Sequence record: NC_001895.1
Direction: 5' to 3' (one strand)
Source: Bacteriophage P2
Length of the DNA stretch: 33,593 nucleotides
Positions within the stretch are counted from its first letter, which is position 1; each line of letters begins with the position of its first letter. The notes under the pieces are model-generated. The model was not told the DNA's origin and ran no database searches. It worked only from the letters and a program-made list of their open reading frames with translations. The translations under genes and the position numbers were made by a program. This document shows, piece after piece, positions 8,923 through 33,574 of the stretch.

Positions 8923-9367
8923 GTTTAAGCGTTTTGAAGACCGGCTGACCGGACTGATTGAATCGCTGTCACCGTCAGGGCGTCGGCGACTGAGTGCCGA
9001 ACTGGCGAAACGTCTGCGGCAGAGTCAGCAGCGTCGGGTGATGGCACAGAAAGCCCCGGACGGCACACCCTACGCGCCACGCCAGCAGCAGAGCGTCAGA
9101 AAAAAGACCGGTCGCGTTAAGCGAAAAATGTTTGCGAAACTTATTACCAGTCGTTTTTTGCATATCCGTGCCAGCCCGGAGCAGGCATCAATGGAATTTT
9201 ACGGCGGGAAGTCGCCGAAAATCGCCAGTGTGCATCAGTTTGGTCTGTCGGAAGAAAACCGGAAAGACGGTAAGAAAATTGATTATCCGGCGCGTCCCCT
9301 GCTCGGCTTTACCGGTGAGGATGTGCAGATGATTGAAGAGATTATCCTGGCTCACCTTGAGCGTTAG
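8915..9367 (+). CDS. S: Tail completion protein S
   Basis: 150-aa ORF overlapping the R stop; expected position and length. Confidence 0.85.
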   Translation: MNEFKRFEDRLTGLIESLSPSGRRRLSAELAKRLRQSQQRRVMAQKAPDGTPYAPRQQQSVRKKTGRVKRKMFAKLITSRFLHIRASPEQASMEFYGGKSPKIASVHQFGLSEENRKDGKKIDYPARPLLGFTGEDVQMIEEIILAHLER

Positions 9368-9396
9368 TTTTATCCAGGCAGAGGCTGATGCGCAAT

Positions 9397-9433
9397 TAAA
9401 CATTGAGCGGCCATGCTGGTCGCTCAATGTTTA
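9397..9433. terminator. Bidirectional hairpin between convergent S and the minus-strand island gene
   Basis: Perfect 13-bp inverted repeat TAAACATTGAGCG / CGCTCAATGTTTA (9397-9409 and 9421-9433) with 11-nt loop, between the S stop (9367) and the orf30 stop (9439). Confidence 0.6.
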
Positions 9434-9438
9434 GAGGT

Positions 9439-10224
9439 TTATGAGTGATTTTTATTTGATGCTTTGTATTCTAAAACCTTCTTATTGGCGTAAAAGAATT
9501 TTGTATATGACAGGAATATAACCAGACCTGAAGTGAAATAGACGAGGGATAGTATTAATAATGCTTTTTTGTGACTGTTATTATCTTTAATCTCCTGGCT
9601 TAACCATTCGGAGTCCTCCTCGTTTAGCTGTAAGAGCTTATTGCAGGCGATCTCAGGAAGTGTGTCTTTTATAAATACGTTTTGCAGTCTCTTGCAATCG
9701 GCAAGGCTATAAGTTTTATTAAATTCAACTGCTTTATTTTTGAAGGATAAAAGAACTTTGTCACTATAAACATAGTACATCATGTTTTTATATGGTATGC
9801 CTGTGGCATCCCTTACTATAACGGATTGTTCGTTGTGTATGTAACATGCGAGGAGAATGTAAAAAATACTGGCCAGAATTACAATTATTGTTTTAATTAT
9901 GTGTGGTGGTTTTGTTATGTCACCCCAGATACGAGTAAGGAAAAAATACGATGTTTTTAGTTTTCCATCAATCAGTCCCTGCTGTATCATTCTCACATTT
10001 TCAATGCCTGATACATTGATTCCGTTAATTATTTTAAATAGTTGAATGTCGCGCCACTCGCGGTCAAGTCTTTTTAATTTTTTGTCTGAATATCCAAAAT
10101 TGAAATAATGTGCAATAAGCCTCATAAGGTTACTTTTACCAAAGCTAAAAAATGCTAATACTGCAAAGCTACAAAGGAAAAAAACGATTAGCCCCCACAC
10201 ATTAGTCACATTATAGCTGACCAT
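9439..10224 (-). CDS. Low-GC accessory (moron) gene: 261-aa membrane protein with about three transmembrane helices, function unknown (P2 orf30 position)
   Basis: ATG at 10222-10224; AT-rich codon usage unlike flanking genes; hydrophobic segments VWGLIVFFLCSFAVLAFFSF, IIKTIIVILASIFYILLACYI, ALLILSLVYFTSGLVIFLSY; opposite strand to the late operons. Confidence 0.75.
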   Translation of the reverse strand: MVSYNVTNVWGLIVFFLCSFAVLAFFSFGKSNLMRLIAHYFNFGYSDKKLKRLDREWRDIQLFKIINGINVSGIENVRMIQQGLIDGKLKTSYFFLTRIWGDITKPPHIIKTIIVILASIFYILLACYIHNEQSVIVRDATGIPYKNMMYYVYSDKVLLSFKNKAVEFNKTYSLADCKRLQNVFIKDTLPEIACNKLLQLNEEDSEWLSQEIKDNNSHKKALLILSLVYFTSGLVIFLSYTKFFYANKKVLEYKASNKNHS

Positions 10225-10307
10225 TACGCTCTCCTTGAATGTTGTCTGGTAGTTCTACAAATGAATCCAGATAGCATAACTTTTATATATTGTGCAATCT
10301 CACATGC

Positions 10308-10943
10308 ATGAACACTCTCGCAAATATTCAGGAACTCGCGCGCGCACTGCGCAACATGATTCGCACTGGCATTATCGTCGAAACCGACCTTAACGCCGGT
10401 CGCTGCCGCGTGCAGACCGGCGGCATGTGCACCGACTGGCTTCAGTGGCTGACCCATCGCGCAGGACGTTCGCGCACATGGTGGGCACCTTCCGTGGGGG
10501 AACAGGTGCTGATTCTGGCCGTGGGTGGTGAACTCGACACGGCGTTCGTTCTGCCGGGGATTTATTCCGGCGATAACCCCTCGCCGTCTGTGTCGGCGGA
10601 TGCCCTGCATATCCGTTTCCCTGACGGGGCGGTGATTGAATATGAACCCGAAACCAGTGCACTCACGGTAAGCGGAATTAAAACGGCCAGCGTGACGGCT
10701 TCCGGTTCTGTTACTGCCACGGTGCCGGTGGTCATGGTGAAAGCATCAACCCGCGTCACCCTGGACACCCCGGAGGTGGTCTGCACCAACAGGCTGATTA
10801 CCGGCACGCTGGAAGTGCAGAAAGGCGGGACGATGCGCGGCAACATTGAACACACCGGCGGTGAACTCTCATCAAACGGTAAGGTACTGCATACCCATAA
10901 ACACCCCGGCGACAGCGGCGGCACAACCGGGAGTCCTTTATGA
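10308..10943 (+). CDS. V: Baseplate spike/assembly protein V
   Basis: ORF track starts at a TTG (10290); ATG at 10308 (MNTLANIQE...) gives 211 aa, matching gpV. Confidence 0.85.
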   Translation: MNTLANIQELARALRNMIRTGIIVETDLNAGRCRVQTGGMCTDWLQWLTHRAGRSRTWWAPSVGEQVLILAVGGELDTAFVLPGIYSGDNPSPSVSADALHIRFPDGAVIEYEPETSALTVSGIKTASVTASGSVTATVPVVMVKASTRVTLDTPEVVCTNRLITGTLEVQKGGTMRGNIEHTGGELSSNGKVLHTHKHPGDSGGTTGSPL

Positions 10944-12733: not shown

Positions 12734-14743
12734 ATGAGCATAAAATTCAGAACCGTTATCACCACTGCCGGTGCAGCAAAGCTGGCAGCGGCAACCGCGC
12801 CGGGAAGGCGGAAGGTCGGCATTACCACGATGGCCGTCGGGGATGGCGGTGGTAAATTGCCTGTCCCGGATGCCGGACAGACCGGGCTTATCCATGAAGT
12901 CTGGCGACATGCGCTGAACAAAATCAGCCAGGACAAACGAAACAGTAATTATATTATCGCCGAGCTGGTTATTCCGCCGGAGGTGGGCGGTTTCTGGATG
13001 CGTGAGCTTGGCCTGTACGATGATGCGGGAACGTTAATTGCCGTGGCGAACATGGCCGAAAGCTATAAGCCAGCCCTTGCCGAAGGCTCAGGACGTTGGC
13101 AGACCTGTCGCATGGTCATCATCGTCAGCAGTGTGGCCTCAGTGGAGCTGACCATTGACACCACAACGGTGATGGCGACGCAGGATTACGTTGATGACAA
13201 AATTGCAGAGCACGAACAGTCACGACGTCACCCGGACGCCTCGCTGACAGCAAAAGGTTTTACTCAGTTAAGCAGTGCGACCAACAGCACGTCTGAAACA
13301 CTGGCCGCAACGCCGAAAGCGGTAAAGGCCGCGTATGACCTGGCTAACGGGAAATATACCGCACAGGACGCCACCACAGCGCGAAAAGGCCTTGTCCAGC
13401 TTAGTAGCGCCACCAACAGCACGTCTGAAACGCTCGCCGCAACACCAAAAGCCGTTAAGACGGTAATGGATGAAACGAACAAAAAAGCGCCATTAAACAG
13501 CCCTGCACTGACCGGAACGCCAACGACGCCAACTGCGCGACAGGGAACGAATAATACTCAGATCGCAAACACGGCTTTCGTTATGGCCGCGATTGCCGCC
13601 CTTGTAGACTCGTCGCCTGACGCACTGAATACGCTGAACGAGCTGGCGGCGGCGCTGGGCAATGACCCGAATTTTGCTACCACCATGACTAATGCGCTTG
13701 CGGGTAAGCAACCGAAAGATGCTACCCTGACGGCGCTGGCGGGGCTTGCTACTGCGGCAGACAGGTTTCCGTATTTTACGGGGAATGATGTTGCCAGCCT
13801 GGCGACCCTGACAAAAGTCGGGCGGGATATTCTGGCTAAATCGACCGTTGCCGCCGTTATCGAATATCTCGGTTTACAGGAAACGGTAAACCGAGCCGGG
13901 AACGCCGTGCAAAAAAATGGCGATACCTTGTCCGGTGGACTTACTTTTGAAAACGACTCAATCCTTGCCTGGATTCGAAATACTGACTGGGCGAAGATTG
14001 GATTTAAAAATGATGCCGATGGTGACACTGATTCATACATGTGGTTTGAAACGGGGGATAACGGCAATGAATATTTCAAATGGAGAAGCCGCCAGAGTAC
14101 CACAACAAAAGACCTGATGACGTTGAAATGGGATGCACTAAATATTCTTGTTAATGCCGTCATTAATGGCTGTTTTGGAGTTGGTACGACGAATGCACTA
14201 GGTGGTAGCTCTATTGTTCTTGGTGATAATGATACCGGATTTAAACAGAATGGAGACGGTATTCTTGATGTTTATGCTAACAGTCAGCGTGTATTCCGTT
14301 TTCAGAATGGAGTGGCTATTGCTTTTAAAAATATTCAGGCAGGTGATAGTAAAAAGTTCTCGCTATCCAGCTCTAATACATCCACGAAGAATATTACCTT
14401 TAATTTATGGGGTGCTTCCACCCGTCCAGTGGTTGCAGAGTTAGGCGATGAGGCCGGATGGCATTTCTATAGCCAGCGAAATACAGATAACTCGGTAATA
14501 TTTGCTGTTAACGGTCAGATGCAACCCAGCAACTGGGGAAATTTTGATTCCCGCTATGTGAAAGATGTTCGCCTGGGTACGCGAGTTGTTCAATTGATGG
14601 CGCGAGGTGGTCGTTATGAAAAAGCCGGACACACGATTACCGGATTAAGAATCATTGGTGAAGTAGATGGCGATGATGAAGCCATCTTCAGGCCGATACA
14701 AAAATACATCAATGGCACATGGTATAACGTTGCGCAGGTGTAA
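12734..14743 (+). CDS. H: Tail fibre protein
   Basis: 669-aa ORF; internal tandem QLSSATNSTSETLAATPKAVK motif typical of tail fibres; C-terminal third is AT-richer than the N-terminal part. Confidence 0.9.
   Translation: MSIKFRTVITTAGAAKLAAATAPGRRKVGITTMAVGDGGGKLPVPDAGQTGLIHEVWRHALNKISQDKRNSNYIIAELVIPPEVGGFWMRELGLYDDAGTLIAVANMAESYKPALAEGSGRWQTCRMVIIVSSVASVELTIDTTTVMATQDYVDDKIAEHEQSRRHPDASLTAKGFTQLSSATNSTSETLAATPKAVKAAYDLANGKYTAQDATTARKGLVQLSSATNSTSETLAATPKAVKTVMDETNKKAPLNSPALTGTPTTPTARQGTNNTQIANTAFVMAAIAALVDSSPDALNTLNELAAALGNDPNFATTMTNALAGKQPKDATLTALAGLATAADRFPYFTGNDVASLATLTKVGRDILAKSTVAAVIEYLGLQETVNRAGNAVQKNGDTLSGGLTFENDSILAWIRNTDWAKIGFKNDADGDTDSYMWFETGDNGNEYFKWRSRQSTTTKDLMTLKWDALNILVNAVINGCFGVGTTNALGGSSIVLGDNDTGFKQNGDGILDVYANSQRVFRFQNGVAIAFKNIQAGDSKKFSLSSSNTSTKNITFNLWGASTRPVVAELGDEAGWHFYSQRNTDNSVIFAVNGQMQPSNWGNFDSRYVKDVRLGTRVVQLMARGGRYEKAGHTITGLRIIGEVDGDDEAIFRPIQKYINGTWYNVAQV
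13265..13460 (+). repeat. Imperfect direct repeat (about 64 nt, twice, period 132 nt) inside tail fibre gene H
   Basis: 13265-13328 and 13397-13460 are near-identical at nucleotide level; they encode the duplicated peptide QLSSATNSTSETLAATPKAVK; the minus-strand shadow ORF 13264-13482 shows the same duplication. Confidence 0.8.
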
Positions 14744-14746
14744 GTT

Positions 14747-15274
14747 ATGCAGCATTTAAAGAACATTAAGTCAGGTAATCCAAAAACAAAAGAGCAATAT
14801 CAGCTAACAAAGAATTTTGATGTTATCTGGTTATGGTCCGAAGACGGAAAAAACTGGTATGAGGAAGTGAAGAACTTTCAGCCAGACACAATAAAGATTG
14901 TTTACGATGAAAATAATATTATTGTCGCTATCACCAGAGATGCTTCAACGCTTAATCCTGAAGGTTTTAGCGTTGTTGAGGTTCCTGATATTACCTCCAA
15001 CCGACGTGCTGACGACTCAGGTAAATGGATGTTTAAGGATGGTGCTGTGGTTAAACGGATTTATACGGCAGATGAACAGCAACAACAGGCAGAATCACAA
15101 AAGGCCGCGTTACTTTCCGAAGCGGAAAACGTTATTCAGCCACTGGAACGCGCTGTCAGGCTGAATATGGCGACGGATGAGGAACGTGCACGACTGGAGT
15201 CATGGGAACGTTACAGCGTTCTGGTCAGCCGTGTGGATCCTGCAAATCCTGAATGGCCGGAAATGCCGCAATAA
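14747..15274 (+). CDS. G: Tail fibre assembly chaperone
   Basis: 175-aa ORF immediately downstream of H; AT-richer composition shared with the 3' part of H. Confidence 0.85.
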
Positions 15275-15674
15275 GTTGTATGACCTCTGTTGTGAACTTA
15301 CATATCTATGGCACAGAGTAAAGCCTAATCTGAAGTCCACTCTGTGCCAAAAGCGGACCTTATAAACAAGAACAATGGTCATATCAGTGTGTTTTGATTG
15401 CATAGCTAACGTGCGTCTTCCTGTACAGAATCATAAGATGATAGGGCATAGGAGATGATTATTATCGCGTGTTTTAAAAATAGCTTTCTGCATCAAGTGT
15501 CACTTGCGAAGAGGTATTGGCGCTATGATTGGCATCACTCAGTTCAGATAATATTTTAAATATTTGGTAAATGTTCAGATTACACAATTCGGTCTGCGTC
15601 CCGTTAAAATTATCTACTATTAGTTATTACTATGAGGTGAATGGCAAGTGTTTTCCACTCGCCATTTTTGTTTT

Positions 15675-17261
15675 TTATTTTTTTAAAGCCTTTCCGACGT
15701 TTAAGGATTTTGCCAAGCCATAAAATATTTGATATTTCATTCCTGTTTTTATTTTTGGTGAGATATTTGCGTAACTTCTTTCTCTAAAACACCAACGTAT
15801 AAACCTATTATTATCTTCGGTTGTTTCTATATAGCATATTACATTGAGACCAAAAAGAAACTGAAGGAAGTCATTTGCAGTTGTCATGAATTTTGGTTTT
15901 GTTGTGGAAATGGAACTAATATGAGTTTCAAGTTGTTTATATGCTAAGAGGTATTCAGCGTAATCAAAAGTATCTTTTCCAGAGAGGAATTCAAAGAACT
16001 TTAAAAAAATCTCATAATGTTCACTTCCATAATAAAATGATAAATGATCTTTTATTTCTCCAAGTAAATAGTTAGAGTAATCTCTTTGCATGCTAGGACT
16101 TTCAAAGTCATCTAGACTAAATTGATTTTTCCCATCATCACCGCTGGCGTGTGATTTGATAATTTCGAGCATCCGTAATATATCTCTTGGGCGATAATAT
16201 GACCAGCGAAGGAAATTAATAAATGATGTGGGGTGGTTATAATTATCATGGACGTTGGGTGAATCCCAAGGGAAATAATGGTCCCATGCCTGTCCCTTTT
16301 TAAGGGCCATGTCTTGCTGAGTCCTAAGCAGATGATCTAATACCTCAAATAATTGAGAGCTACGGTGGTTAACATATTCTGTCCGCCAGTCCAAGAATAC
16401 TGAATTATCTCTGATTTTTGCGTTTTGATTTTGTAATCCTATGGATTCAAATATATCTGGCCTGATCAAGAGAACGGCCTTCATTCTCCCTTTTCCTCCC
16501 TTTATACTTGGGAAGAAATCGTTGTTAATCTCCCAGACTGCGTGAGCTAATCCTTTTATACATTCTAGATAATCATCGTATGGAATTGAGGAAGGGCGGA
16601 TATCAATACCATCGATAAATAAAATATGATTTTGAGATAAACGTATTTGGCTAAAGGCCTCTTCAAATTTTTTTTGTATATAAAATAAATTTATCTGAAA
16701 TCTGCTCTCAGAAAAAGATAAAGACTCTCTTTCTTCACCTTTTAAGGTTGCATGCTTATGAAGTAGTTCGGCTGCAACTTTTGACTCTTGAACAAAACTG
16801 AGGGCTTGAATTATTTCTGGTGAAAATGCCTTAAGATAATACTCATCTATTGCATCATTAAGTGATGAGAATTTTGAATAATTTAGTAACTTTGAAATTT
16901 TCCCTTCTTTATCTAATACTTGTTTTGATATTAATAAATATAGAATAACTTTCCATATGCCAGAGAAGTCAGACAAATTTAAATGCTTTTCAGATTTAAG
17001 AGTGATAAATTTTTGATATTCTGTCTCTCTTATATATTTAGTTGTAGCTAGCGTATTGTTAATATTGTTATTTGAGAGATAGATAGAGTATGCGGTTTTA
17101 CCAGTACCTTTCTCTCCTACAAGAAACGATATATTTGGTTCACATAATCTAGATAGGTGATTATCACGTATGAACACTTTGTTAAGTAATTCTTTATTCT
17201 CCCTTCTCTTATAATTTTCAGCATCAGCATAGCCAAGAGTTAGATCTTTGATTGGTATCAT
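15675..17261 (-). CDS. fun: Low-GC accessory gene: 528-aa P-loop NTPase (Walker A GEKGTGKT; candidate Walker B ILFIDGIDIR), candidate phage-exclusion protein at the Z/fun position
   Basis: ATG at 17259-17261 with GAGGT RBS; strongly AT-rich; minus strand between plus-strand G and FI; flanked by about 400-bp AT-rich non-coding regions; gene symbol assigned from position in the P2 map, not from sequence comparison. Confidence 0.75.
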   Translation of the reverse strand: MIPIKDLTLGYADAENYKRRENKELLNKVFIRDNHLSRLCEPNISFLVGEKGTGKTAYSIYLSNNNINNTLATTKYIRETEYQKFITLKSEKHLNLSDFSGIWKVILYLLISKQVLDKEGKISKLLNYSKFSSLNDAIDEYYLKAFSPEIIQALSFVQESKVAAELLHKHATLKGEERESLSFSESRFQINLFYIQKKFEEAFSQIRLSQNHILFIDGIDIRPSSIPYDDYLECIKGLAHAVWEINNDFFPSIKGGKGRMKAVLLIRPDIFESIGLQNQNAKIRDNSVFLDWRTEYVNHRSSQLFEVLDHLLRTQQDMALKKGQAWDHYFPWDSPNVHDNYNHPTSFINFLRWSYYRPRDILRMLEIIKSHASGDDGKNQFSLDDFESPSMQRDYSNYLLGEIKDHLSFYYGSEHYEIFLKFFEFLSGKDTFDYAEYLLAYKQLETHISSISTTKPKFMTTANDFLQFLFGLNVICYIETTEDNNRFIRWCFRERSYANISPKIKTGMKYQIFYGLAKSLNVGKALKK

Positions 17262-17651
17262 TATTACCTCAACTAAAGCAATTGAAAAACATATGGTTAT
17301 AAAAACATAGCGCTGCTCTGTCGCATATTGTGGATATCAACATATGAAATGTAAAGGAACTATTTGTGGATGAATGAACCGAATCGCTGTAGCTTCGGTA
17401 GTCATCTTTCAGACTTGTATAAATGAACAACTTCCGCTTCTCGCTCAAAGGAAACTGTCAGATTTGATAGCTTTTGGGCTATGTAAACTGTCAGTCGGAA
17501 AATGAGTGAGTACAAATCAGGGCAGGTGAGCGAATTGCCCGCCTTTTCTTTACCGGTGGTTGTGCTGTCGATTAGCCAACCGGGACAAATAGCCTGACAT
17601 CTCCGGCGCAACTGAAAATACCACTCACCCATTAACCACGGAGTTAAACGG
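17262..17651. promoter_or_regulatory. Divergent intergenic region: promoter of the minus-strand NTPase gene and late promoter for the FI operon
   Basis: 390-bp non-coding gap between divergent genes; P2-type late promoter for the tail sheath operon is expected upstream of FI; exact elements not resolved by eye. Confidence 0.4.
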
Positions 17652-18842
17652 ATGAGTGACTATCATCACGGCGTGCAGGTGCTGGAGATTAACGAGGGCA
17701 CCCGCGTCATTTCCACCGTATCCACGGCCATTGTCGGCATGGTCTGCACGGCCAGCGATGCAGATGCGGAAACCTTCCCCCTCAATAAACCTGTGCTGAT
17801 TACCAATGTGCAGAGCGCAATTTCAAAGGCCGGTAAAAAAGGCACGCTGGCGGCATCGTTGCAGGCCATCGCTGACCAGTCAAAACCGGTCACCGTTGTC
17901 ATGCGCGTGGAAGACGGCACCGGTGATGACGAGGAAACGAAACTCGCGCAGACCGTTTCCAATATCATCGGCACCACCGATGAAAACGGTCAGTACACCG
18001 GACTAAAAGCCATGCTGGCGGCGGAGTCGGTAACCGGTGTTAAACCGCGTATTCTCGGCGTGCCGGGACTGGATACCAAAGAGGTGGCTGTTGCACTGGC
18101 ATCAGTCTGTCAGAAGCTGCGTGCTTTCGGGTATATCAGCGCATGGGGCTGTAAAACCATTTCCGAGGTGAAAGCCTATCGTCAGAATTTCAGCCAGCGT
18201 GAGCTGATGGTCATCTGGCCGGATTTCCTCGCATGGGATACGGTCACCAGTACCACCGCCACCGCGTATGCCACCGCCCGTGCGCTGGGGCTGCGCGCTA
18301 AAATCGACCAGGAGCAGGGCTGGCATAAAACGCTGTCCAATGTCGGGGTGAACGGTGTTACCGGCATCAGCGCATCTGTATTCTGGGATTTGCAGGAGTC
18401 CGGCACCGATGCTGACCTGCTTAACGAGTCAGGCGTCACTACGCTGATTCGCCGCGACGGTTTCCGCTTCTGGGGTAACCGTACCTGCTCTGATGACCCG
18501 CTGTTCCTCTTTGAAAACTACACCCGCACCGCGCAGGTCGTGGCCGACACGATGGCTGAGGCGCACATGTGGGCGGTGGACAAGCCCATCACTGCAACGC
18601 TGATTCGCGACATCGTTGACGGCATCAATGCCAAATTCCGTGAGCTGAAAACAAACGGCTATATCGTGGATGCGACCTGCTGGTTCAGCGAAGAATCCAA
18701 CGATGCGGAAACCCTCAAGGCCGGAAAACTGTATATCGACTACGACTATACACCGGTGCCTCCTCTCGAAAACCTGACCCTGCGCCAGCGTATTACCGAT
18801 AAATACCTGGCAAATCTGGTCACCTCGGTTAACAGCAATTAA
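17652..18842 (+). CDS. FI: Contractile tail sheath protein
   Basis: 396-aa ORF; expected position and length. Confidence 0.9.
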   Translation: MSDYHHGVQVLEINEGTRVISTVSTAIVGMVCTASDADAETFPLNKPVLITNVQSAISKAGKKGTLAASLQAIADQSKPVTVVMRVEDGTGDDEETKLAQTVSNIIGTTDENGQYTGLKAMLAAESVTGVKPRILGVPGLDTKEVAVALASVCQKLRAFGYISAWGCKTISEVKAYRQNFSQRELMVIWPDFLAWDTVTSTTATAYATARALGLRAKIDQEQGWHKTLSNVGVNGVTGISASVFWDLQESGTDADLLNESGVTTLIRRDGFRFWGNRTCSDDPLFLFENYTRTAQVVADTMAEAHMWAVDKPITATLIRDIVDGINAKFRELKTNGYIVDATCWFSEESNDAETLKAGKLYIDYDYTPVPPLENLTLRQRITDKYLANLVTSVNSN

Positions 18843-30319: not shown

Positions 30320-30645
30320 TGGCAAAAATTCACGAGGTAAAGCTGCACGCAAAATATTTCGACCTTGTACTGGAAGGAAAGAAACGCGCAGAGTTTCGGA
30401 AAAAAGATCGTAATTATGAGCGCGGGGACACGTTGATTTTGCATGAATGGGTGCAGGGTGTGTTTACGGGGCGAAAGGTTGAAGCCCGGATAACAGATGT
30501 TACTGACCTGTCAGACTGGCTGGAAGATTATGTCTTGCTGCACAGAATACTAGGTGAGATACTGCCGCTGACTGTCAAGCTGGCAGTATCCTCCACATTT
30601 TTTATAAATCTAAGGCGAAGAACGGTGGCAATATATTTGCTTTAA
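30316..30645 (+). CDS. ASCH/DUF3850-like small protein (orf91 position)
   Basis: ATGATG at 30316-30321 overlapping the A stop; pattern KIHEVKLHAKYFDLVLEGKKRAEFRKKDRNYERGDTLILHEW resembles ASCH/DUF3850 (PUA-like) domain proteins. Confidence 0.65.
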   Translation: MMAKIHEVKLHAKYFDLVLEGKKRAEFRKKDRNYERGDTLILHEWVQGVFTGRKVEARITDVTDLSDWLEDYVLLHRILGEILPLTVKLAVSSTFFINLRRRTVAIYLL

Positions 30646-30683
30646 ATTGTAAATAAGCAAATTATTCTAAGCCACAAATGATA

Positions 30684-31445
30684 TCAATTGAGTATCGATT
30701 TTCGTTCGAATATAACCATAACGCCAAGCGTCAAATGTAAGTCATCTATATGTGATTCGTATTCATATTGGTCAGCATCAGGAGATAGTAAATGCTCTGC
30801 TGCTGTAAAAACATCAATTGTAACAGATATATCGTCTGGAATTTCTTCATTTAATTCGGATATGTATTTTTTATATTTGTTTTTTAATTTCCTTATCATG
30901 TCTTCCTTATGGTGGATTGTAGTGCAGTAATTTTTTTTAGTTGAATCATTGTATGAATGGAATGAACAGTTTAATGCTAGGCCAAGACTTGAATTTCCTG
31001 TAGGGCCTGTGTGTTTAAAGTATTCAAGATTTCTTCTTATGTCAGAAAATAAAAGACTTTTACAGGGGGCATTTCCTTTAACTTCTATTGCACATATTGG
31101 AATGTCGAAAAATGGTCTGCTGTCCAATATGGCAATATCAATTCTGCCTGATCTTGTTGTGTTTGTGTTTTTTCTGACAGTTTTTTTTGAGAATATTTTT
31201 TGGGGGTCAGACCGTTTCGATAAAGGAACTGTTGCATTAATGAATTTATTTGTATGGTACTCAAATATAACTTTGTAATCACCATGGCGAAAAGATTTTA
31301 TTTCTAACAACGATAGACCTATAGATACGGTAGCTACATATTCAGTGTTTATTTTTGCACCAGACCTGAAATCCATTAAATAAGTTGCGTCGGCTGACTT
31401 TTTCATTCCATCTTTTACAGCTTTCACAATATCCATGTTATTCAT
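30684..31445 (-). CDS. tin: Low-GC accessory gene: 253-aa protein at the tin position (T-even phage inhibition), with a possible PD-(D/E)xK-like motif
   Basis: ATG at 31443-31445 with AGGTG RBS; AT-rich; minus strand downstream of old; motif IDIAILD...x13...EVK in residues about 101-123; gene symbol assigned from position in the P2 map. Confidence 0.75.
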   Translation of the reverse strand: MNNMDIVKAVKDGMKKSADATYLMDFRSGAKINTEYVATVSIGLSLLEIKSFRHGDYKVIFEYHTNKFINATVPLSKRSDPQKIFSKKTVRKNTNTTRSGRIDIAILDSRPFFDIPICAIEVKGNAPCKSLLFSDIRRNLEYFKHTGPTGNSSLGLALNCSFHSYNDSTKKNYCTTIHHKEDMIRKLKNKYKKYISELNEEIPDDISVTIDVFTAAEHLLSPDADQYEYESHIDDLHLTLGVMVIFERKSILN

Positions 31446-31619
31446 ATCAACACCTTTTATATTCCAGAATTATAAATCTTAATGATTGATTTGTTTGTGT
31501 GTTTAGGTTACTAGATTGACGTACTTATAGCACATTCTGATTTTGAAATCACCATCCTTGGGTAAAGCACAGCCTATCACTATTGGTTTAGTACTGTGCT
31601 GTAATAGTATCAGATTAAG

Positions 31620-33380
31620 TTAAATCCATTTTATGAAATCTTCCATTTCATCATATTTTTTTATTACTGCTCTAACATCTTTGCTTTCATCACATAAACA
31701 ATCTAAAAGACTATCCCATTCAGTTTGTTTTTTACCAAATCCATAAACAGCCTCTATATCACCGGATTTCCATATATAGATTCCGTTATCTTTCAATTTT
31801 TGATGTATTTCATGTATATGCTTTTGTGTTTTTTCATGGTTACATATTTTGATGAAGTCTTTGCTTGAAATGCTTTTGAATGACTCAAAAGTAGTAACTT
31901 TTGTATTTAAACTAAGCTCTCCTGAGTTGATTGATTCAATCAAAGCAGTCAATAGATTATCACATTCAGTACTAAGTAAGTCTTTATGCTCTGTTAATAG
32001 AATATTTGATAAGAAATCACAATCAGCTAGAATCCTTGTTTTTATGCCGATGGCATTGATGATTTGTGACATCTTAAATAAACTACCCTTACCGTCAACG
32101 GCAACAATGCAGATTTTACTCGGGTTGAGTTCATGTCCGTTAATTTTTTTATAAAGTGCATATAGAACGTTTGTCTCTGTTTTCCCTTCAACAAGCAAAA
32201 CTTCTTCAGAAAATAAAAGGTATGATGAATTAGAAAGCGTGAATGCTGAGTGCAATTGCGGTGATGAAGATTTATATAATTCTTCGATTTTTTCAGATAT
32301 AGTCTTCCTTGCTATGGTTCCATTAGAATCCTTACAAACCTGAATCGCATTTGCTGCATGCTTTGCAGAAAGCATACTGGCTGAGTGAGTTGATATTATA
32401 ACCTGATACCCTGATTCACTTAATGTGACAAGTGATTCTCTGACAGAATTAATGGCTGAAGGGTGTAAATATAACTCAGGTTCATCAATGAAAATCAAAG
32501 TGTTTGATTTTTTTGATTCGCTGTTTTCTTTTTTTATTTCGGCCAGGTATTGAATTAATGCCATTTGAATGGAACGTTGTGTTCCGTGACCAAATCGGCT
32601 GATATCTCTCATTACCGGTTCATCTTCCCGAGACTCAAAAACTTTCAGAGTGCCGGATTTAAATATCTCATCTAATGTCGGTGTGGGAAAGTGTAACTTT
32701 ACACTTACGTCAGGAAAAAATTGGTTTACTTTTTTATTTACACCTGAGTCTATTTTATTAAGGCTTTCTAATCTGTTCTCACCGTTGTGAGAAAGATATT
32801 TACCTATTTCTGATATGTTTTTTGAAAATTTTTCTTCGTGTTCTTGTTTTATTTCAGAAACAATTGCGGAAAGTATCTTTCCTATTGTGGTCGTGTTTTT
32901 GCATTTTGTTGAGTCTTCGACAGCGTCAGACATTGCAGGGATATGAATTGGTTCCGGAAATATATTGGAGATTGCACCATCTATGCCGCCAGGGTTTTTC
33001 TTCCACGTGGTACCGTCATATACATCCAGACTTTTTTTGGCTTTTCCTGTTTCCTTATTAAATTCCTGTCTTCTTGCAAAGGTAAGAGTCCCGTCAATTA
33101 TAAACGGAGCTATTTTTTGTTGATTCTCTTCTGTTAACAAAGACAGAGTATCATCTGTTATACCTTGAATAACGCCTTCAACGGATACGGGGTGTGTAGG
33201 ATCGTACACATCTGATTCTGAAATCAAAGAGCCATCTAACAGCCACTTAATTGCTAAGATAATATTTGATTTTCCTGCGTTATTATAACCAACTAAAGCA
33301 GTGAAGGGGCGCAAAATAGCCGATGTTGACTTACAAGAACGAAAGTTGCTAATTGAAACTGAAGCAAGACGTACAGTCAT
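31620..33380 (-). CDS. old: OLD-family nuclease: N-terminal ABC-type ATPase fused to C-terminal TOPRIM domain (anti-phage / overcoming lysogenisation defect)
   Basis: 586 aa; Walker A GYNNAGKSN near N-terminus; Walker B LIFIDEPELYLHP; TOPRIM-like LLVEGKTETNVL and DxD in ILADCDFLS; AT-rich; last gene before right cos. Confidence 0.85.
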   Translation of the reverse strand: MTVRLASVSISNFRSCKSTSAILRPFTALVGYNNAGKSNIILAIKWLLDGSLISESDVYDPTHPVSVEGVIQGITDDTLSLLTEENQQKIAPFIIDGTLTFARRQEFNKETGKAKKSLDVYDGTTWKKNPGGIDGAISNIFPEPIHIPAMSDAVEDSTKCKNTTTIGKILSAIVSEIKQEHEEKFSKNISEIGKYLSHNGENRLESLNKIDSGVNKKVNQFFPDVSVKLHFPTPTLDEIFKSGTLKVFESREDEPVMRDISRFGHGTQRSIQMALIQYLAEIKKENSESKKSNTLIFIDEPELYLHPSAINSVRESLVTLSESGYQVIISTHSASMLSAKHAANAIQVCKDSNGTIARKTISEKIEELYKSSSPQLHSAFTLSNSSYLLFSEEVLLVEGKTETNVLYALYKKINGHELNPSKICIVAVDGKGSLFKMSQIINAIGIKTRILADCDFLSNILLTEHKDLLSTECDNLLTALIESINSGELSLNTKVTTFESFKSISSKDFIKICNHEKTQKHIHEIHQKLKDNGIYIWKSGDIEAVYGFGKKQTEWDSLLDCLCDESKDVRAVIKKYDEMEDFIKWI

Positions 33381-33574
33381 TATTTTTCCTTAAATGTGCT
33401 ATTTGTATGCAATGAGTTCATACGAAACGCTTTTTTACATTTTATAGTCGTTGCATTCAAGGGTGCATGAGATTGCATTAAGGGAAACTGTGATATGGCT
33501 TGGCTTTTGACTGGAAATACTGATGGCTCATTAGTTTTATTAAGGTGCATTAAAACCGCCCCGTGAAGCGGGCG

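What the first reader, a model, noticed from the sequence alone, without database searches (positions are those of the whole stretch)
15275..17651. AT-rich opposite-strand island between tail fibre chaperone G and sheath FI encodes a 528-aa P-loop NTPase (Z/fun hotspot)
A single 528-aa minus-strand gene sits between the plus-strand tail fibre and tail sheath operons, flanked by about 400 bp of AT-rich non-coding DNA on each side. Its codon composition is clearly foreign to the rest of the phage. The protein has an N-terminal Walker A (GEKGTGKT) and a candidate Walker B of the hhhhDGxDxR type (ILFIDGIDIRP), which is reminiscent of KAP-type NTPases such as PifA-like exclusion proteins, with a long C-terminal region lacking motifs I can name. 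In the P2 family this position is the Z/fun locus (T5 exclusion) and a known variable hotspot for anti-phage cargo. The mechanism of a protein like this is not established, so it is the strongest candidate for an under-described defence function here.
Basis: partly seen in the sequence, partly recalled or inferred. Interest (0 to 1): 0.8.

Follow-up and report, generated by a model that had tools for sequence, protein, structure and literature searches.

The report
Phage P2 Fun/Z exclusion ATPase gene
This is the long-known fun(Z) gene of phage P2, a single imported ATPase that protects lysogens against T5 and other large phages; its identity and position are ordinary, but how it works is still unknown.

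Summary
A 528-aa minus-strand ORF (15675-17261) lies between tail-fibre chaperone G and sheath FI. Its GC is 33% and GC3 27%, against GC3 67-69% in FI/FII. Walker A (49-56) and Walker B (213-223) are invariant across the family.

The window is phage P2 (it also encodes Old and Tin), so this gene is P2's own fun(Z). Published work shows that cloned Fun/Z blocks T5-like, T-even, rV5-like and other phages above about 60 kb, with no known mechanism as of 2025. The G-FI interval is a real defence hotspot: relatives carry PD-T7-1, PD-T7-3, a Lit-like peptidase or other cargo there, between conserved inverted repeats.

The KAP/PifA-like idea is not supported. There is no KAP Pfam hit in 30 diverse members and no membrane segment. 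The protein belongs to NCBIfam "P-loop ATPase, Sll1717 family". A good AlphaFold model resembles DNA-binding AAA+ ATPases (TnsC, Cdc6/Orc1, ORC, MuB, BrxC), with a lid and a basic winged helix and no enzymatic effector domain. Homologues are solo genes, often at prophage edges.

My best guess, which is inference, is an ATP-driven switch that assembles on phage DNA or replication machinery. The gene is already known; interest is moderate-low.

The parts
15675..17261 (-). fun(Z) coding sequence, 528 aa: a solo P-loop/AAA+ ATPase (NCBIfam NF047389, Sll1717 family). Layout: N-terminal conserved segment 1-44; nucleotide-binding domain about 45-300, with a helical insertion at 79-205 between helix alpha2 and the Walker B strand; lid about 300-375; helical plus winged-helix region about 380-528.
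17094..17117 (-). Codons for Walker A, GEKGTGKT (residues 49-56).
   Evidence: K51/G52/G54/K55/T56 are invariant in the diverse family alignment.
16593..16625 (-). Codons for Walker B, ILFIDGIDIRP (residues 213-223). This is the hhhhDGxD type found in STAND/NACHT-like ATPases.
   Evidence: D217 and D220 are invariant and P223 is at least 90% conserved.
16455..16472 (-). Codons for LLIRPD (residues 264-269). Invariant R267 lies at the end of the strand at residues 260-266, taken to be AAA+ strand beta4, which is the sensor-1 position. An Arg at this position is typical of STAND ATPases.
   Evidence: secondary structure. The assignment as sensor 1 is inferred from topology.
16182..16199 (-). Codons for YYRPRD (residues 355-360) at the start of a lid helix. 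P358 and R359 are invariant. Candidate sensor-2 arginine.
   Evidence: The function is inferred.
15362..17428 (.). Cargo segment unique to P2. It has no homology to other P2-like phages: funZ plus 313 bp downstream and 167 bp upstream.
   Evidence: blastn of 15100-17800 against the G-FI regions of Wphi, vB_YpM_46, fiAA91-ss, P2-EC30 and P2-EC46. Backbone homology stops at 15361 and resumes at 17429.
15247..15359 (.). Left inverted repeat of the P2-family Z-region. It overlaps the last 28 nt of G.
   Evidence: Maps onto the annotated 'left inverted repeat' (3-115) of AJ512680/AJ512676 at 91.5% identity.
17435..17525 (.). Right inverted repeat of the Z-region. The inner core 17433-17464 is the imperfect reverse complement (24 of 32) of 15327-15357.
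   Evidence: Maps onto the annotated 'right inverted repeat' of AJ512680 (3166-3256). Core alignment.
17269..17272 (-). Shine-Dalgarno GAGG, 7 nt upstream of the ATG.
   Evidence: Read from the sequence. It lies within the 41 bp upstream that are still conserved with the Proteus prophage copy.
17327..17355 (-). Candidate sigma-70 promoter (TTTACA-17-CACAAT). Weak evidence.
   Evidence: Consensus scan, 9 of 12 matches. Such sites are no more frequent here than in shuffles (13 found against 8.7 +/- 3.0), so this is only a candidate.
15640..15666 (-). Stem-loop of 11 bp starting 9 nt after the stop codon, with no U tract. Possible 3' end or stabiliser hairpin.
   Evidence: RNA fold -17.7 kcal/mol; shuffles average -4.8 +/- 2.2; z = -5.9. 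Not reported by the terminator scan because there is no T run.

Best explanation
Shown: the island is the fun(Z) lysogenic-conversion gene of phage P2. It is a horizontally acquired single-gene anti-phage system carried in the Z-region cassette between G and FI. The protein has invariant Walker A and B motifs.

Predicted from the structure model and from sequence motifs: the protein is a stand-alone AAA+ ATPase of the STAND/ORC-Cdc6/TnsC kind. It has an Arg at the sensor-1 position and a PR(D) sensor-2 motif. A 125-residue soluble helical insertion sits where initiator-clade ATPases carry their DNA-contacting insertion. A lid and a basic C-terminal winged helix follow. No nuclease, protease, TIR, SIR2, membrane or other effector domain was found.

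Inferred mechanism: FunZ is made in the lysogen and sits as an inactive monomer. When a large phage infects, FunZ binds ATP and self-assembles on nucleic acid, meaning phage DNA or a replication or recombination intermediate, or on a replisome component. Contact would be through the AAA+ insertion and the winged helix. The assembly itself would be the effector: it blocks phage genome replication or expression, much as MuB, TnsC and ORC coat or clamp DNA. Whether the cell survives is not known.

My probabilities: identity about 0.97; architecture about 0.85; nucleic-acid or replisome-directed self-assembly as the mechanism about 0.35-0.4.
For: Identity:
- Gene order H-G-(funZ)-FI-FII.
- Old (712 bits) and Tin (325 bits) are encoded in the same window.
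- A 99.7-100% identical gene sits at the same G-FI position in P2 prophages of 13 of 5426 complete E. coli genomes.
- NCBI names close relatives 'funZ protein'.

Phenotype (literature):
- P2 fun gives immunity to T5 and is flanked by inverted repeats (PMC8987985).
- Cloned Fun/Z inhibits all Tevenvirinae, Vequintavirinae and Markadamsvirinae tested, plus a Felixounavirus (PMC8594841).
[quoted passage not shown] 60 kb' (PMC11990801).

Architecture:
- AF2 model with pLDDT 81.8 and pTM 0.80.
- Foldseek: RdrA, ORC4/5 and SSO1545.
- The C-terminal model matches winged-helix domains: MukF 6.5, SSO1545 6.2, JetA/B, ORC1, MCM8-WH, NB-ARC. It matches no enzyme fold.
- Sub-threshold Pfam hits among 30 relatives: nSTAND3 10, ORC-CDC6-like 8, AAA_16 5.

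Nucleic-acid lead:
- Most of the best structural neighbours, and every one named above apart from the uncharacterised SSO1545, are ATP-dependent dsDNA-binding AAA+ proteins.
- The last 58 residues are basic (pI 9.8) and contain R495, K503 and K505, which are invariant among the close relatives (identity 62% or more to P2 FunZ).
- Two 50%-identity cluster representatives carry a C-terminal cold-shock (OB-fold nucleic-acid-binding) domain, just under Pfam's cut-off (25.5 and 23.2 bits against 27).

Solo system:
- No conserved neighbour in Proteus, Shewanella, Pseudomonas, Chromohalobacter, Thermodesulfobacteriota or metagenome loci.
- Homology between the P2 and Proteus copies covers only the ORF plus 41 bp upstream.
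Against: - Nothing here shows DNA binding, oligomerisation or ATP hydrolysis.
- Winged helices in STAND proteins mostly serve autoinhibition and oligomer contacts, not DNA binding.
- No arginine finger is conserved across the family. R284 is invariant only among close relatives. This fits a STAND-type exchange switch better than a processive DNA-dependent motor.
- The literature files Fun/Z as an abortive-infection system. That would call for a killing activity which the domain content does not explain.
- The size-dependent target range could equally reflect a protein trigger shared by large phages, or simply their longer latent period.
Confidence: 0.4

Rival explanations
1. FunZ is a minimal STAND-like sensor that recognises a phage protein, not nucleic acid. 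A protein common to large phages, for example a replication, nucleotide-metabolism or host-takeover factor, would bind the helical insertion or the winged helix. This would trigger ATP-dependent oligomerisation. Infection would then abort through ATP consumption, through sequestration (poisoning) of that phage protein, or through an unlinked host effector.
For: - STAND-type motifs: hhhhDGxD Walker B, invariant Arg at the sensor-1 position, and no family-wide arginine finger.
- nSTAND3 and NPHP3_N are the commonest weak Pfam hits.
- One relative has an N-terminal Ser/Thr kinase fused to the FunZ ATPase module, as in effector-STAND architectures.
- The literature classifies Fun/Z as abortive infection.
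- By analogy, P2 Tin, per the cited review, poisons the phage SSB protein.
Against: - There is no repeat-type or other dedicated sensor domain and no effector domain.
- No conserved partner gene is present.
- The very broad target range across unrelated large phages is harder to explain with a single protein ligand.
- The kinase fusion is a single cluster representative. It stops within the lid, 28 residues after its last FunZ-matching residue, and may be a truncated gene call.
Confidence: 0.33
2. One reading: a KAP-type, PifA-like membrane-associated NTPase that excludes phages by acting at the membrane.
For: - Walker A plus a hhhhD-x-x-D-x-R-like Walker B.
- A large insertion lies between Walker A and Walker B, where, from my recollection of the original KAP family description and not checked here, KAP NTPases carry their inserted transmembrane helices.
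- The BASEL paper reports earlier work suggesting that PifA triggers host cell death by membrane depolarisation.
Against: - KAP_NTPase was not reported for P2 FunZ at E<=10 or for any of 30 diverse relatives at E<=0.01.
- The insertion is made of soluble helices. The highest 19-residue Kyte-Doolittle mean in the protein is 1.24, below the usual transmembrane threshold.
- The PADLOC library gave only a P-loop-level match to PDC-M28C (E 0.003).
Confidence: 0.04
3. The gene is not primarily an anti-phage gene. It would be a housekeeping or regulatory ATPase (the family is named after the cyanobacterial protein Sll1717) that P2 carries incidentally.
For: - Many homologues sit alone in ordinary chromosomal contexts, such as Shewanella between flagellar and chemotaxis genes, Chromohalobacter, and next to a phn operon.
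- The family is spread across phyla at 60-78% identity.
Against: - The cloned P2 gene gives strong, broad phage resistance.
- It occupies a hotspot whose alternative cargo matches defence-system models: PD-T7-1, PD-T7-3, the candidate PDC-S51, Lit, and nuclease effectors.
- Other copies lie next to prophage integrases and a type II-like methyltransferase and near the ends of viral contigs.
- Distribution is patchy: 0.24% of complete E. coli genomes. Together with the very AT-rich composition, this indicates horizontal transfer.
Confidence: 0.03

Closest known systems
Phage P2 Fun/Z (fun, Z gene; 'Z-region' lysogenic conversion gene)
   Same: It is this gene: same phage, same position between G and FI, same inverted-repeat-flanked cassette, same AT-rich composition. 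The anti-T5 and broad anti-large-phage phenotype is published.
   Different: Nothing differs.
NCBIfam NF047389 'P-loop ATPase, Sll1717 family'
   Same: Full-length match of 209 bits against a cut-off of 75. RefSeq annotates the identical E. coli prophage gene with this name.
   Different: The family name carries no functional information. No paper in the searchable library mentions Sll1717.
DNA-binding AAA+ ATPases of the initiator / transposition-target-selector type (Cdc6/Orc1, ORC subunits, TnsC, MuB, DnaA)
   Different: Sequence identity is only 9-13%. No member of these Pfam families is hit above threshold. The FunZ insertion is far larger, at about 125 residues and five helices. No arginine finger is conserved family-wide. 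No origin, transposase or helicase partner is present.
STAND-type defence NTPases (Avs/AVAST, bacterial NACHT, nSTAND families)
   Different: FunZ has neither an N-terminal effector domain nor a C-terminal repeat sensor, and is only 528 aa. All Pfam STAND hits are below the gathering score. It did not match any Avs or NACHT model in PADLOC.
RADAR RdrA and BREX BrxC (defence-system AAA+ ATPases)
   Different: Both work with partner proteins (RdrB deaminase; BrxB/PglZ and others) and are much larger. FunZ has no partner. TM-scores are low (0.17-0.29).
KAP NTPases / F-plasmid PifA
   Same: A P-loop NTPase acting as a single-gene phage exclusion determinant, with an insertion between Walker A and Walker B.
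   Different: No KAP_NTPase Pfam match and no transmembrane segment. It should not be filed as KAP.

Membership tests
Phage P2 fun(Z) gene | Located between tail-fibre assembly gene G and sheath gene FI of P2, on the opposite strand. | tested here: met
   ORF map. The same arrangement is annotated in E. coli P2 prophages with a 99.7-100% identical gene.
Phage P2 fun(Z) gene | The genome is P2: it carries the other P2 exclusion genes, old and tin. | tested here: met
   PADLOC Old 712 bits (31620-33380, -) and Tin 325 bits (30684-31445, -). That the window length of 33,593 bp equals the P2 reference length is my recollection and was not checked.
Phage P2 fun(Z) gene | Cassette flanked by the Z-region inverted repeats. 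| tested here: met
   Window 15247-15359 and 17435-17525 align to the annotated left and right inverted repeats of AJ512680/AJ512676. The within-P2 core complementarity is weak, 24 of 32.
Phage P2 fun(Z) gene | Confers exclusion of T5 and other phages. | not testable with these tools
   Literature only: PMC8987985, PMC8594841, PMC11990801.
NCBIfam NF047389, P-loop ATPase Sll1717 family | Whole-protein score above the curated cut-off, over the full model. | tested here: met
   209.3 bits against cut-off 75; residues 9-518 on model positions 1-452 of 454.
KAP NTPase (PF07693; PifA, Kidins220) | Match to the KAP_NTPase profile. | tested here: not met
   No hit at E<=10 for P2 FunZ. 0 of 30 diverse relatives hit at E<=0.01.
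KAP NTPase (PF07693; PifA, Kidins220) | Transmembrane helices inserted in the NTPase domain (typical of the family, though not universal; from my recollection of the KAP family description). | tested here: not met
   The insertion 79-205 is predicted as soluble helices. The highest 19-residue hydropathy mean is 1.24.
STAND NTPases | Walker B of the hhhhD[GD]hD type and a conserved Arg at the end of strand 4 (sensor-1 position). | tested here: met
   LFIDGID with D217 and D220 invariant. LLIRPD with R267 invariant, following strand 260-266.
STAND NTPases | NBD, helical domain and winged-helix module. | tested here: met
STAND NTPases | Fused effector domain and C-terminal repeat or other sensor domain. 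| tested here: not met
   No further domain in 528 aa. Only about 44 residues precede the P-loop strand.
STAND NTPases | Profile match above threshold to a STAND family (NACHT, NB-ARC, nSTAND). | tested here: inconclusive
   nSTAND3 was hit by 10 of 30 relatives (best E 4.2e-5 among those 30). An additional relative, P0091, scored 26.6 bits against the gathering score of 27.2, and no relative reached it.
Initiator-clade AAA+ (ORC/Cdc6/DnaA) and TnsC/MuB | AAA+ fold similarity with lid, and with a winged helix for Cdc6/Orc1. | tested here: met
Initiator-clade AAA+ (ORC/Cdc6/DnaA) and TnsC/MuB | Conserved arginine finger (box VII) for inter-subunit ATP hydrolysis. | tested here: inconclusive
   R284 is invariant among relatives of 62% identity or more but not across the wider family. 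There the loop consensus is N-x-N-x-K-x-x-D-N, with N278 invariant.
Initiator-clade AAA+ (ORC/Cdc6/DnaA) and TnsC/MuB | ATP-dependent DNA binding. | not testable with these tools
   Indirect hints only: a basic C-terminal winged helix (pI 9.8) and cold-shock-domain fusions in two relatives.
Abortive-infection system | The infected cell dies or arrests without releasing phage. | not testable with these tools
   The classification as Abi comes from the literature. No toxic domain was recognised here.

The most novel reading that the evidence does not exclude
FunZ represents an undescribed defence principle: a stripped-down ORC/STAND-like AAA+ ATPase with no enzymatic effector, whose own ATP-driven assembly on phage DNA or on the phage replisome is the antiviral act. 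It could work as a DNA-coating filament or clamp like MuB/TnsC, or as a decoy loader that traps a phage replication protein. This would explain why it hits nearly all phages above about 60 kb regardless of family.
Probability: 0.25. Interest if true: 0.7.

Novelty: already known. Interest (0 to 1): 0.35.

Why it matters
The gene, its position, its AT-rich foreign character, the variability of the locus and the phage-exclusion phenotype are all in the literature, so the finding is a rediscovery. What remains open is the mechanism. Fun/Z has one of the broadest target ranges of any single-gene E. coli defence tested on the BASEL collection, yet its molecular basis 'has remained unknown' (PMC11990801, 2025). 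It is also absent from PADLOC-DB 2.0.0, although that library holds Old and Tin.

The analysis here narrows the question. FunZ is not KAP-like. It has no recognisable effector domain or partner gene. It looks like a DNA-binding AAA+/STAND switch with a winged helix. That turns 'unknown mechanism' into a few direct experiments: ATP-dependent DNA binding and oligomerisation, point mutants of named residues, and mapping of escape mutants. If the assembly itself is the effector, it would be a new mode of immunity.

Tried and rejected
1. KAP/PifA membership: tested with Pfam on P2 FunZ and on 30 relatives, and with a hydropathy scan. Rejected.

2. Known defence-system models: PADLOC gave only a P-loop-level hit to the candidate PDC-M28C (E 0.003, residues 17-74). 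Rejected as uninformative.

3. Sequence search of the PDB with a family profile: no hit even at E<=10.

5. A second gene in the cassette: the 59-aa TTG ORF (17269-17448, -) directly upstream of funZ was considered as a partner or leader. It was rejected because homology with the Proteus copy begins only 41 bp upstream of the ATG and the ORF end overlaps the ribosome-binding site.

6. Conserved neighbour: large ORFs downstream of funZ in two distant loci (1241 and 1255 aa) were compared and are unrelated.

7. Structured RNAs in the flanks: Rfam found nothing at E<=1.

8. Long exact inverted repeats around the island: the generic repeat finder found none. The published repeats are recognisable only by homology to other P2-like phages.

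9. Other phages with FunZ: tblastn against 50,697 phage records found none. The P2 reference record itself is evidently not in that collection.

10. Literature on mechanism: seven completed full-text searches (three more attempts were rejected for term-format errors), including 'Sll1717' and 'funZ', found no mechanistic study. The Christie & Calendar 2016 review and Odegrip 2006 are not held.
Full report
**1. Observation**

A 528-aa ORF runs on the minus strand from 17261 (ATG) to 15675 (stop). It sits between the plus-strand genes for a 175-aa tail-fibre assembly protein (G, 14747-15274) and a 396-aa sheath protein (FI, 17652-18842). That leaves 400 bp of non-coding DNA on the left and 390 bp on the right.

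The composition is clearly foreign:
- The ORF has GC 0.328 and GC3 0.270, against 0.560/0.673 for FI and 0.563/0.688 for FII.
- 400-nt windows drop to 0.28-0.37 inside the island.

The quoted motifs are present: GEKGTGKT at residues 49-56 and ILFIDGIDIRP at 213-223. They are not chance matches. K51, G52, G54, K55, T56, D217 and D220 are invariant in an alignment of 30 relatives that reach down to 24% identity.

**2. Identity**

The window is phage P2.
- It has the P2 tail gene order. At its right end it encodes full-length matches to the PADLOC models for Old (712 bits) and Tin (325 bits).
- The 1,587-bp ORF occurs at 99.7-100% identity in 13 of 5,426 complete E. coli genomes. It is always chromosomal. 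In the two loci I opened it sat at the same G-FI position of a P2 prophage, annotated 'P-loop ATPase, Sll1717 family'.
- NCBI names the 91%-identical Salmonella cluster 'funZ protein'.

So this is the fun(Z) gene of P2, not merely something at the Z/fun position. The phage collection available here evidently lacks the P2 reference record, because the best phage hits match only the flanks. That the window length equals the P2 reference length is my own recollection.

**3. What is already published**

- P2 carries three exclusion genes, fun, tin and old. [quoted passage not shown]
- The Z-region is one of three loci where P2-like phages carry non-P2 genes (PMC3091744).
- Cloned Fun/Z inhibits all Tevenvirinae, Vequintavirinae and Markadamsvirinae of the BASEL collection, plus a Felixounavirus (PMC8594841).
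[quoted passage not shown] 60 kb, but the molecular basis ... has remained unknown' (PMC11990801, April 2025).
- Seven completed full-text searches found no mechanistic paper.

**4. The cassette and the hotspot**

I compared 15100-17800 with the G-FI regions of other P2-like phages. Backbone homology ends at 15361 and resumes at 17429, so the P2-specific cargo is 15362-17428. The segments just outside the cargo correspond to the inverted repeats annotated in AJ512680 and AJ512676: left at about 15247-15359, overlapping the end of G, and right at about 17435-17525. Within P2 the two arms share only an imperfect 32-nt core (24 of 32). This is why a generic repeat search missed them.

The interval is variable, and its other occupants are defence genes:

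| Phage | Cargo in the G-FI interval |
|---|---|
| vB_YpM_46 | PD-T7-1 (E 1.5e-156) |
| P2-EC30 | PD-T7-3 (E 3.5e-168) |
| fiAA91-ss | PDC-S51 / DUF3800 protein |
| P2-EC46 | Lit-like U49 peptidase plus a protein with an endonuclease-effector N-terminus |
| Wphi | Unknown 299-aa protein |
| pro483 | Invertible tail-fibre segment with a DNA invertase |

**5. The family**

FunZ matches NCBIfam NF047389 over its full length (209 bits against a cut-off of 75) and PHROG 13260, a family of unknown function. It matches no Pfam family above threshold.

The family is large and widely spread. There are 1,804 hits in the 90%-identity database, with 60-78% identity in Pseudomonas, Shewanella, Methylobacter, Chromohalobacter and Thermodesulfobacteriota. 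At 50% identity there are 685 clusters with E<=0.001.

Nearly all members are about 520-550 aa and stand alone. In seven genomic contexts I found no conserved neighbour.
- The gene sits beside prophage integrases in Proteus and Pseudomonas.
- It sits alone in chromosomal backbone in Shewanella, Chromohalobacter, a Thermodesulfobacteriota genome and a metagenome contig.
- Two large downstream ORFs are unrelated to each other.

Homology between the P2 and Proteus copies covers only the ORF plus 41 bp upstream. In IMG/VR, 16 viral contigs encode relatives; on five of the six long non-P2 contigs the gene lies within about 5 kb of a contig end. No other record in the GenBank phage collection encodes a homologue.

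Rare fusions exist: a C-terminal cold-shock domain in two cluster representatives (25.5 and 23.2 bits, just under Pfam's 27) and an N-terminal Ser/Thr kinase in one.

**6. Structure**

An AlphaFold2 model built on 64 sequences is confident (pLDDT 81.8, pTM 0.80). Its topology is an AAA+ core with these elements:
- strand 46-48, the P-loop, and helix 55-64;
- strand 70-76;
- a five-helix insertion at 79-205;
- the Walker B strand 211-217;
- strand 260-266, ending in invariant R267;
- a poorly ordered but highly conserved loop at 275-294 (QNQNxKxRDN);
- a helical lid carrying the invariant P358-R359 of the YYRPRD motif;
- further helices and a three-stranded wing at 475-512.

A separate model of residues 296-528 (pLDDT 72) matches winged-helix domains: MukF 6.5, SSO1545 6.2, JetA/JetB, ORC1, MCM8-WH, NB-ARC and TubR. 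It matches no enzyme fold.

Scanning 30 diverse relatives against Pfam gives sub-threshold hits to nSTAND3 (10), ORC-CDC6-like (8), AAA_16 (5) and NPHP3_N (4), and none to KAP_NTPase. There is no transmembrane-like segment.

So FunZ is a minimal NBD-lid-winged-helix ATPase of the STAND/ORC kind, and the KAP/PifA comparison fails.

**7. Mechanism**

Shown:
- It is a single-gene defence (literature).
- The ATP-binding motifs are under strict conservation.

Predicted (from the model and the profile and fold searches):
- There is no recognisable catalytic effector and no membrane domain.

Inferred: the protein is a nucleotide-driven switch whose assembly is itself the antiviral act. I favour assembly on phage DNA, replication intermediates or the replisome (about 0.35-0.4), for four reasons.
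- Most of the closest folds are ATP-dependent dsDNA binders.
- The insertion occupies the position of the DNA-contacting initiator-specific motif.
- The C-terminal winged helix is basic (pI 9.8) and carries R495, K503 and K505, which are invariant among the close relatives.
- Some relatives add a cold-shock nucleic-acid-binding domain.

The main rival (about 0.33) is a STAND-like protein sensor that oligomerises on a protein shared by large phages and either poisons that protein or aborts the infection. The STAND-type motifs, the lack of a family-wide arginine finger, the kinase fusion and the literature's Abi label all favour this rival. Neither model is tested here.

**8. Other features of the cassette**

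- A GAGG ribosome-binding site lies 7 nt upstream of the ATG.
- A weak sigma-70-like site lies at 17327-17355. It matches 9 of 12 positions, and such sites are not enriched over shuffles.
- An 11-bp stem-loop lies 9 nt after the stop codon (-17.7 kcal/mol, z = -5.9) with no U tract.
- Rfam finds nothing in the region.

**9. Verdict**

The gene is already known and its phenotype is published, so novelty is 'already known'. Interest comes only from the unresolved mechanism and the sharper, testable picture given here. I score interest at 0.35.

Noticed in passing
window 9200-10400 (ORF 9439..10224, -, 261 aa): A second AT-rich opposite-strand island (GC 0.36-0.43) lies inside the tail and baseplate genes. 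This is the position of P2 orf30. Its 261-aa product has no PADLOC hit (E<=0.001) and no NCBIfam hit (E<=1e-5). It may be another unexplained piece of cargo.
   Followed up: partly
window 30400-33400 (ORFs 30684..31445 - and 31620..33380 -): A third AT-rich island (GC 0.29-0.38) encodes Tin (PADLOC 325 bits) and Old (712 bits). This confirms the window is P2.
   Followed up: yes
PADLOC-DB 2.0.0: The library has dedicated models for P2 Old and Tin but none that recognises Fun/Z. Standard defence-finder annotation with this version would therefore miss the third P2 exclusion gene and its 1,800 or more homologues.
   Followed up: partly
window 14001-15274 (3' third of H, and G): The C-terminal part of tail fibre gene H and the chaperone gene G are also lower in GC (0.40-0.44; G has GC3 0.40) than the rest of the tail operon. 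This suggests the receptor-binding tip and its chaperone form a separately exchanged module next to the Z-region.
   Followed up: no
L010 (E. coli APEC O1, NC_008563.1 945243-949020): In this P2 prophage the sheath gene FI, immediately next to funZ, is split by an IS21-family element (ISEc12). The prophage is defective but keeps an intact, 100% identical funZ.
   Followed up: no
window 15362-15674: This is 313 bp of cargo-specific, AT-rich DNA downstream of funZ. It has no convincing ORF, no Rfam match, and no homology to the Proteus copy or to other P2-like phages. It begins with a strong hairpin (15640-15666). Its origin and role are unexplained.
   Followed up: partly
P0123 (693 aa), P0125 (623 aa), P0202 (760 aa), P0247 (727 aa): Rare FunZ relatives carry extra domains. 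P0123 and P0125 have a C-terminal cold-shock domain. P0202 has an N-terminal Ser/Thr protein kinase. P0247 has a 168-residue N-terminal extension with no Pfam hit. These could point to the ligand or to the output of the module.
   Followed up: partly
L015 (phage pro483, NC_028943.1 20278-22449): In some P2-like phages the G-FI interval holds an invertible alternative tail-fibre and chaperone segment with a DNA invertase instead of a defence gene. The same junction therefore serves both host-range switching and defence cargo.
   Followed up: no
window residues 275-294 of FunZ (codons about 16380-16439): The loop GLQNQNAKIRDNSVFLDW is among the most conserved stretches of the family: N278 and W292 are invariant, and D285 and N286 are at least 90% conserved. 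Yet it is the least confident part of the monomer model (pLDDT about 41). This is the pattern expected for an inter-subunit or ligand-contact loop.
   Followed up: no
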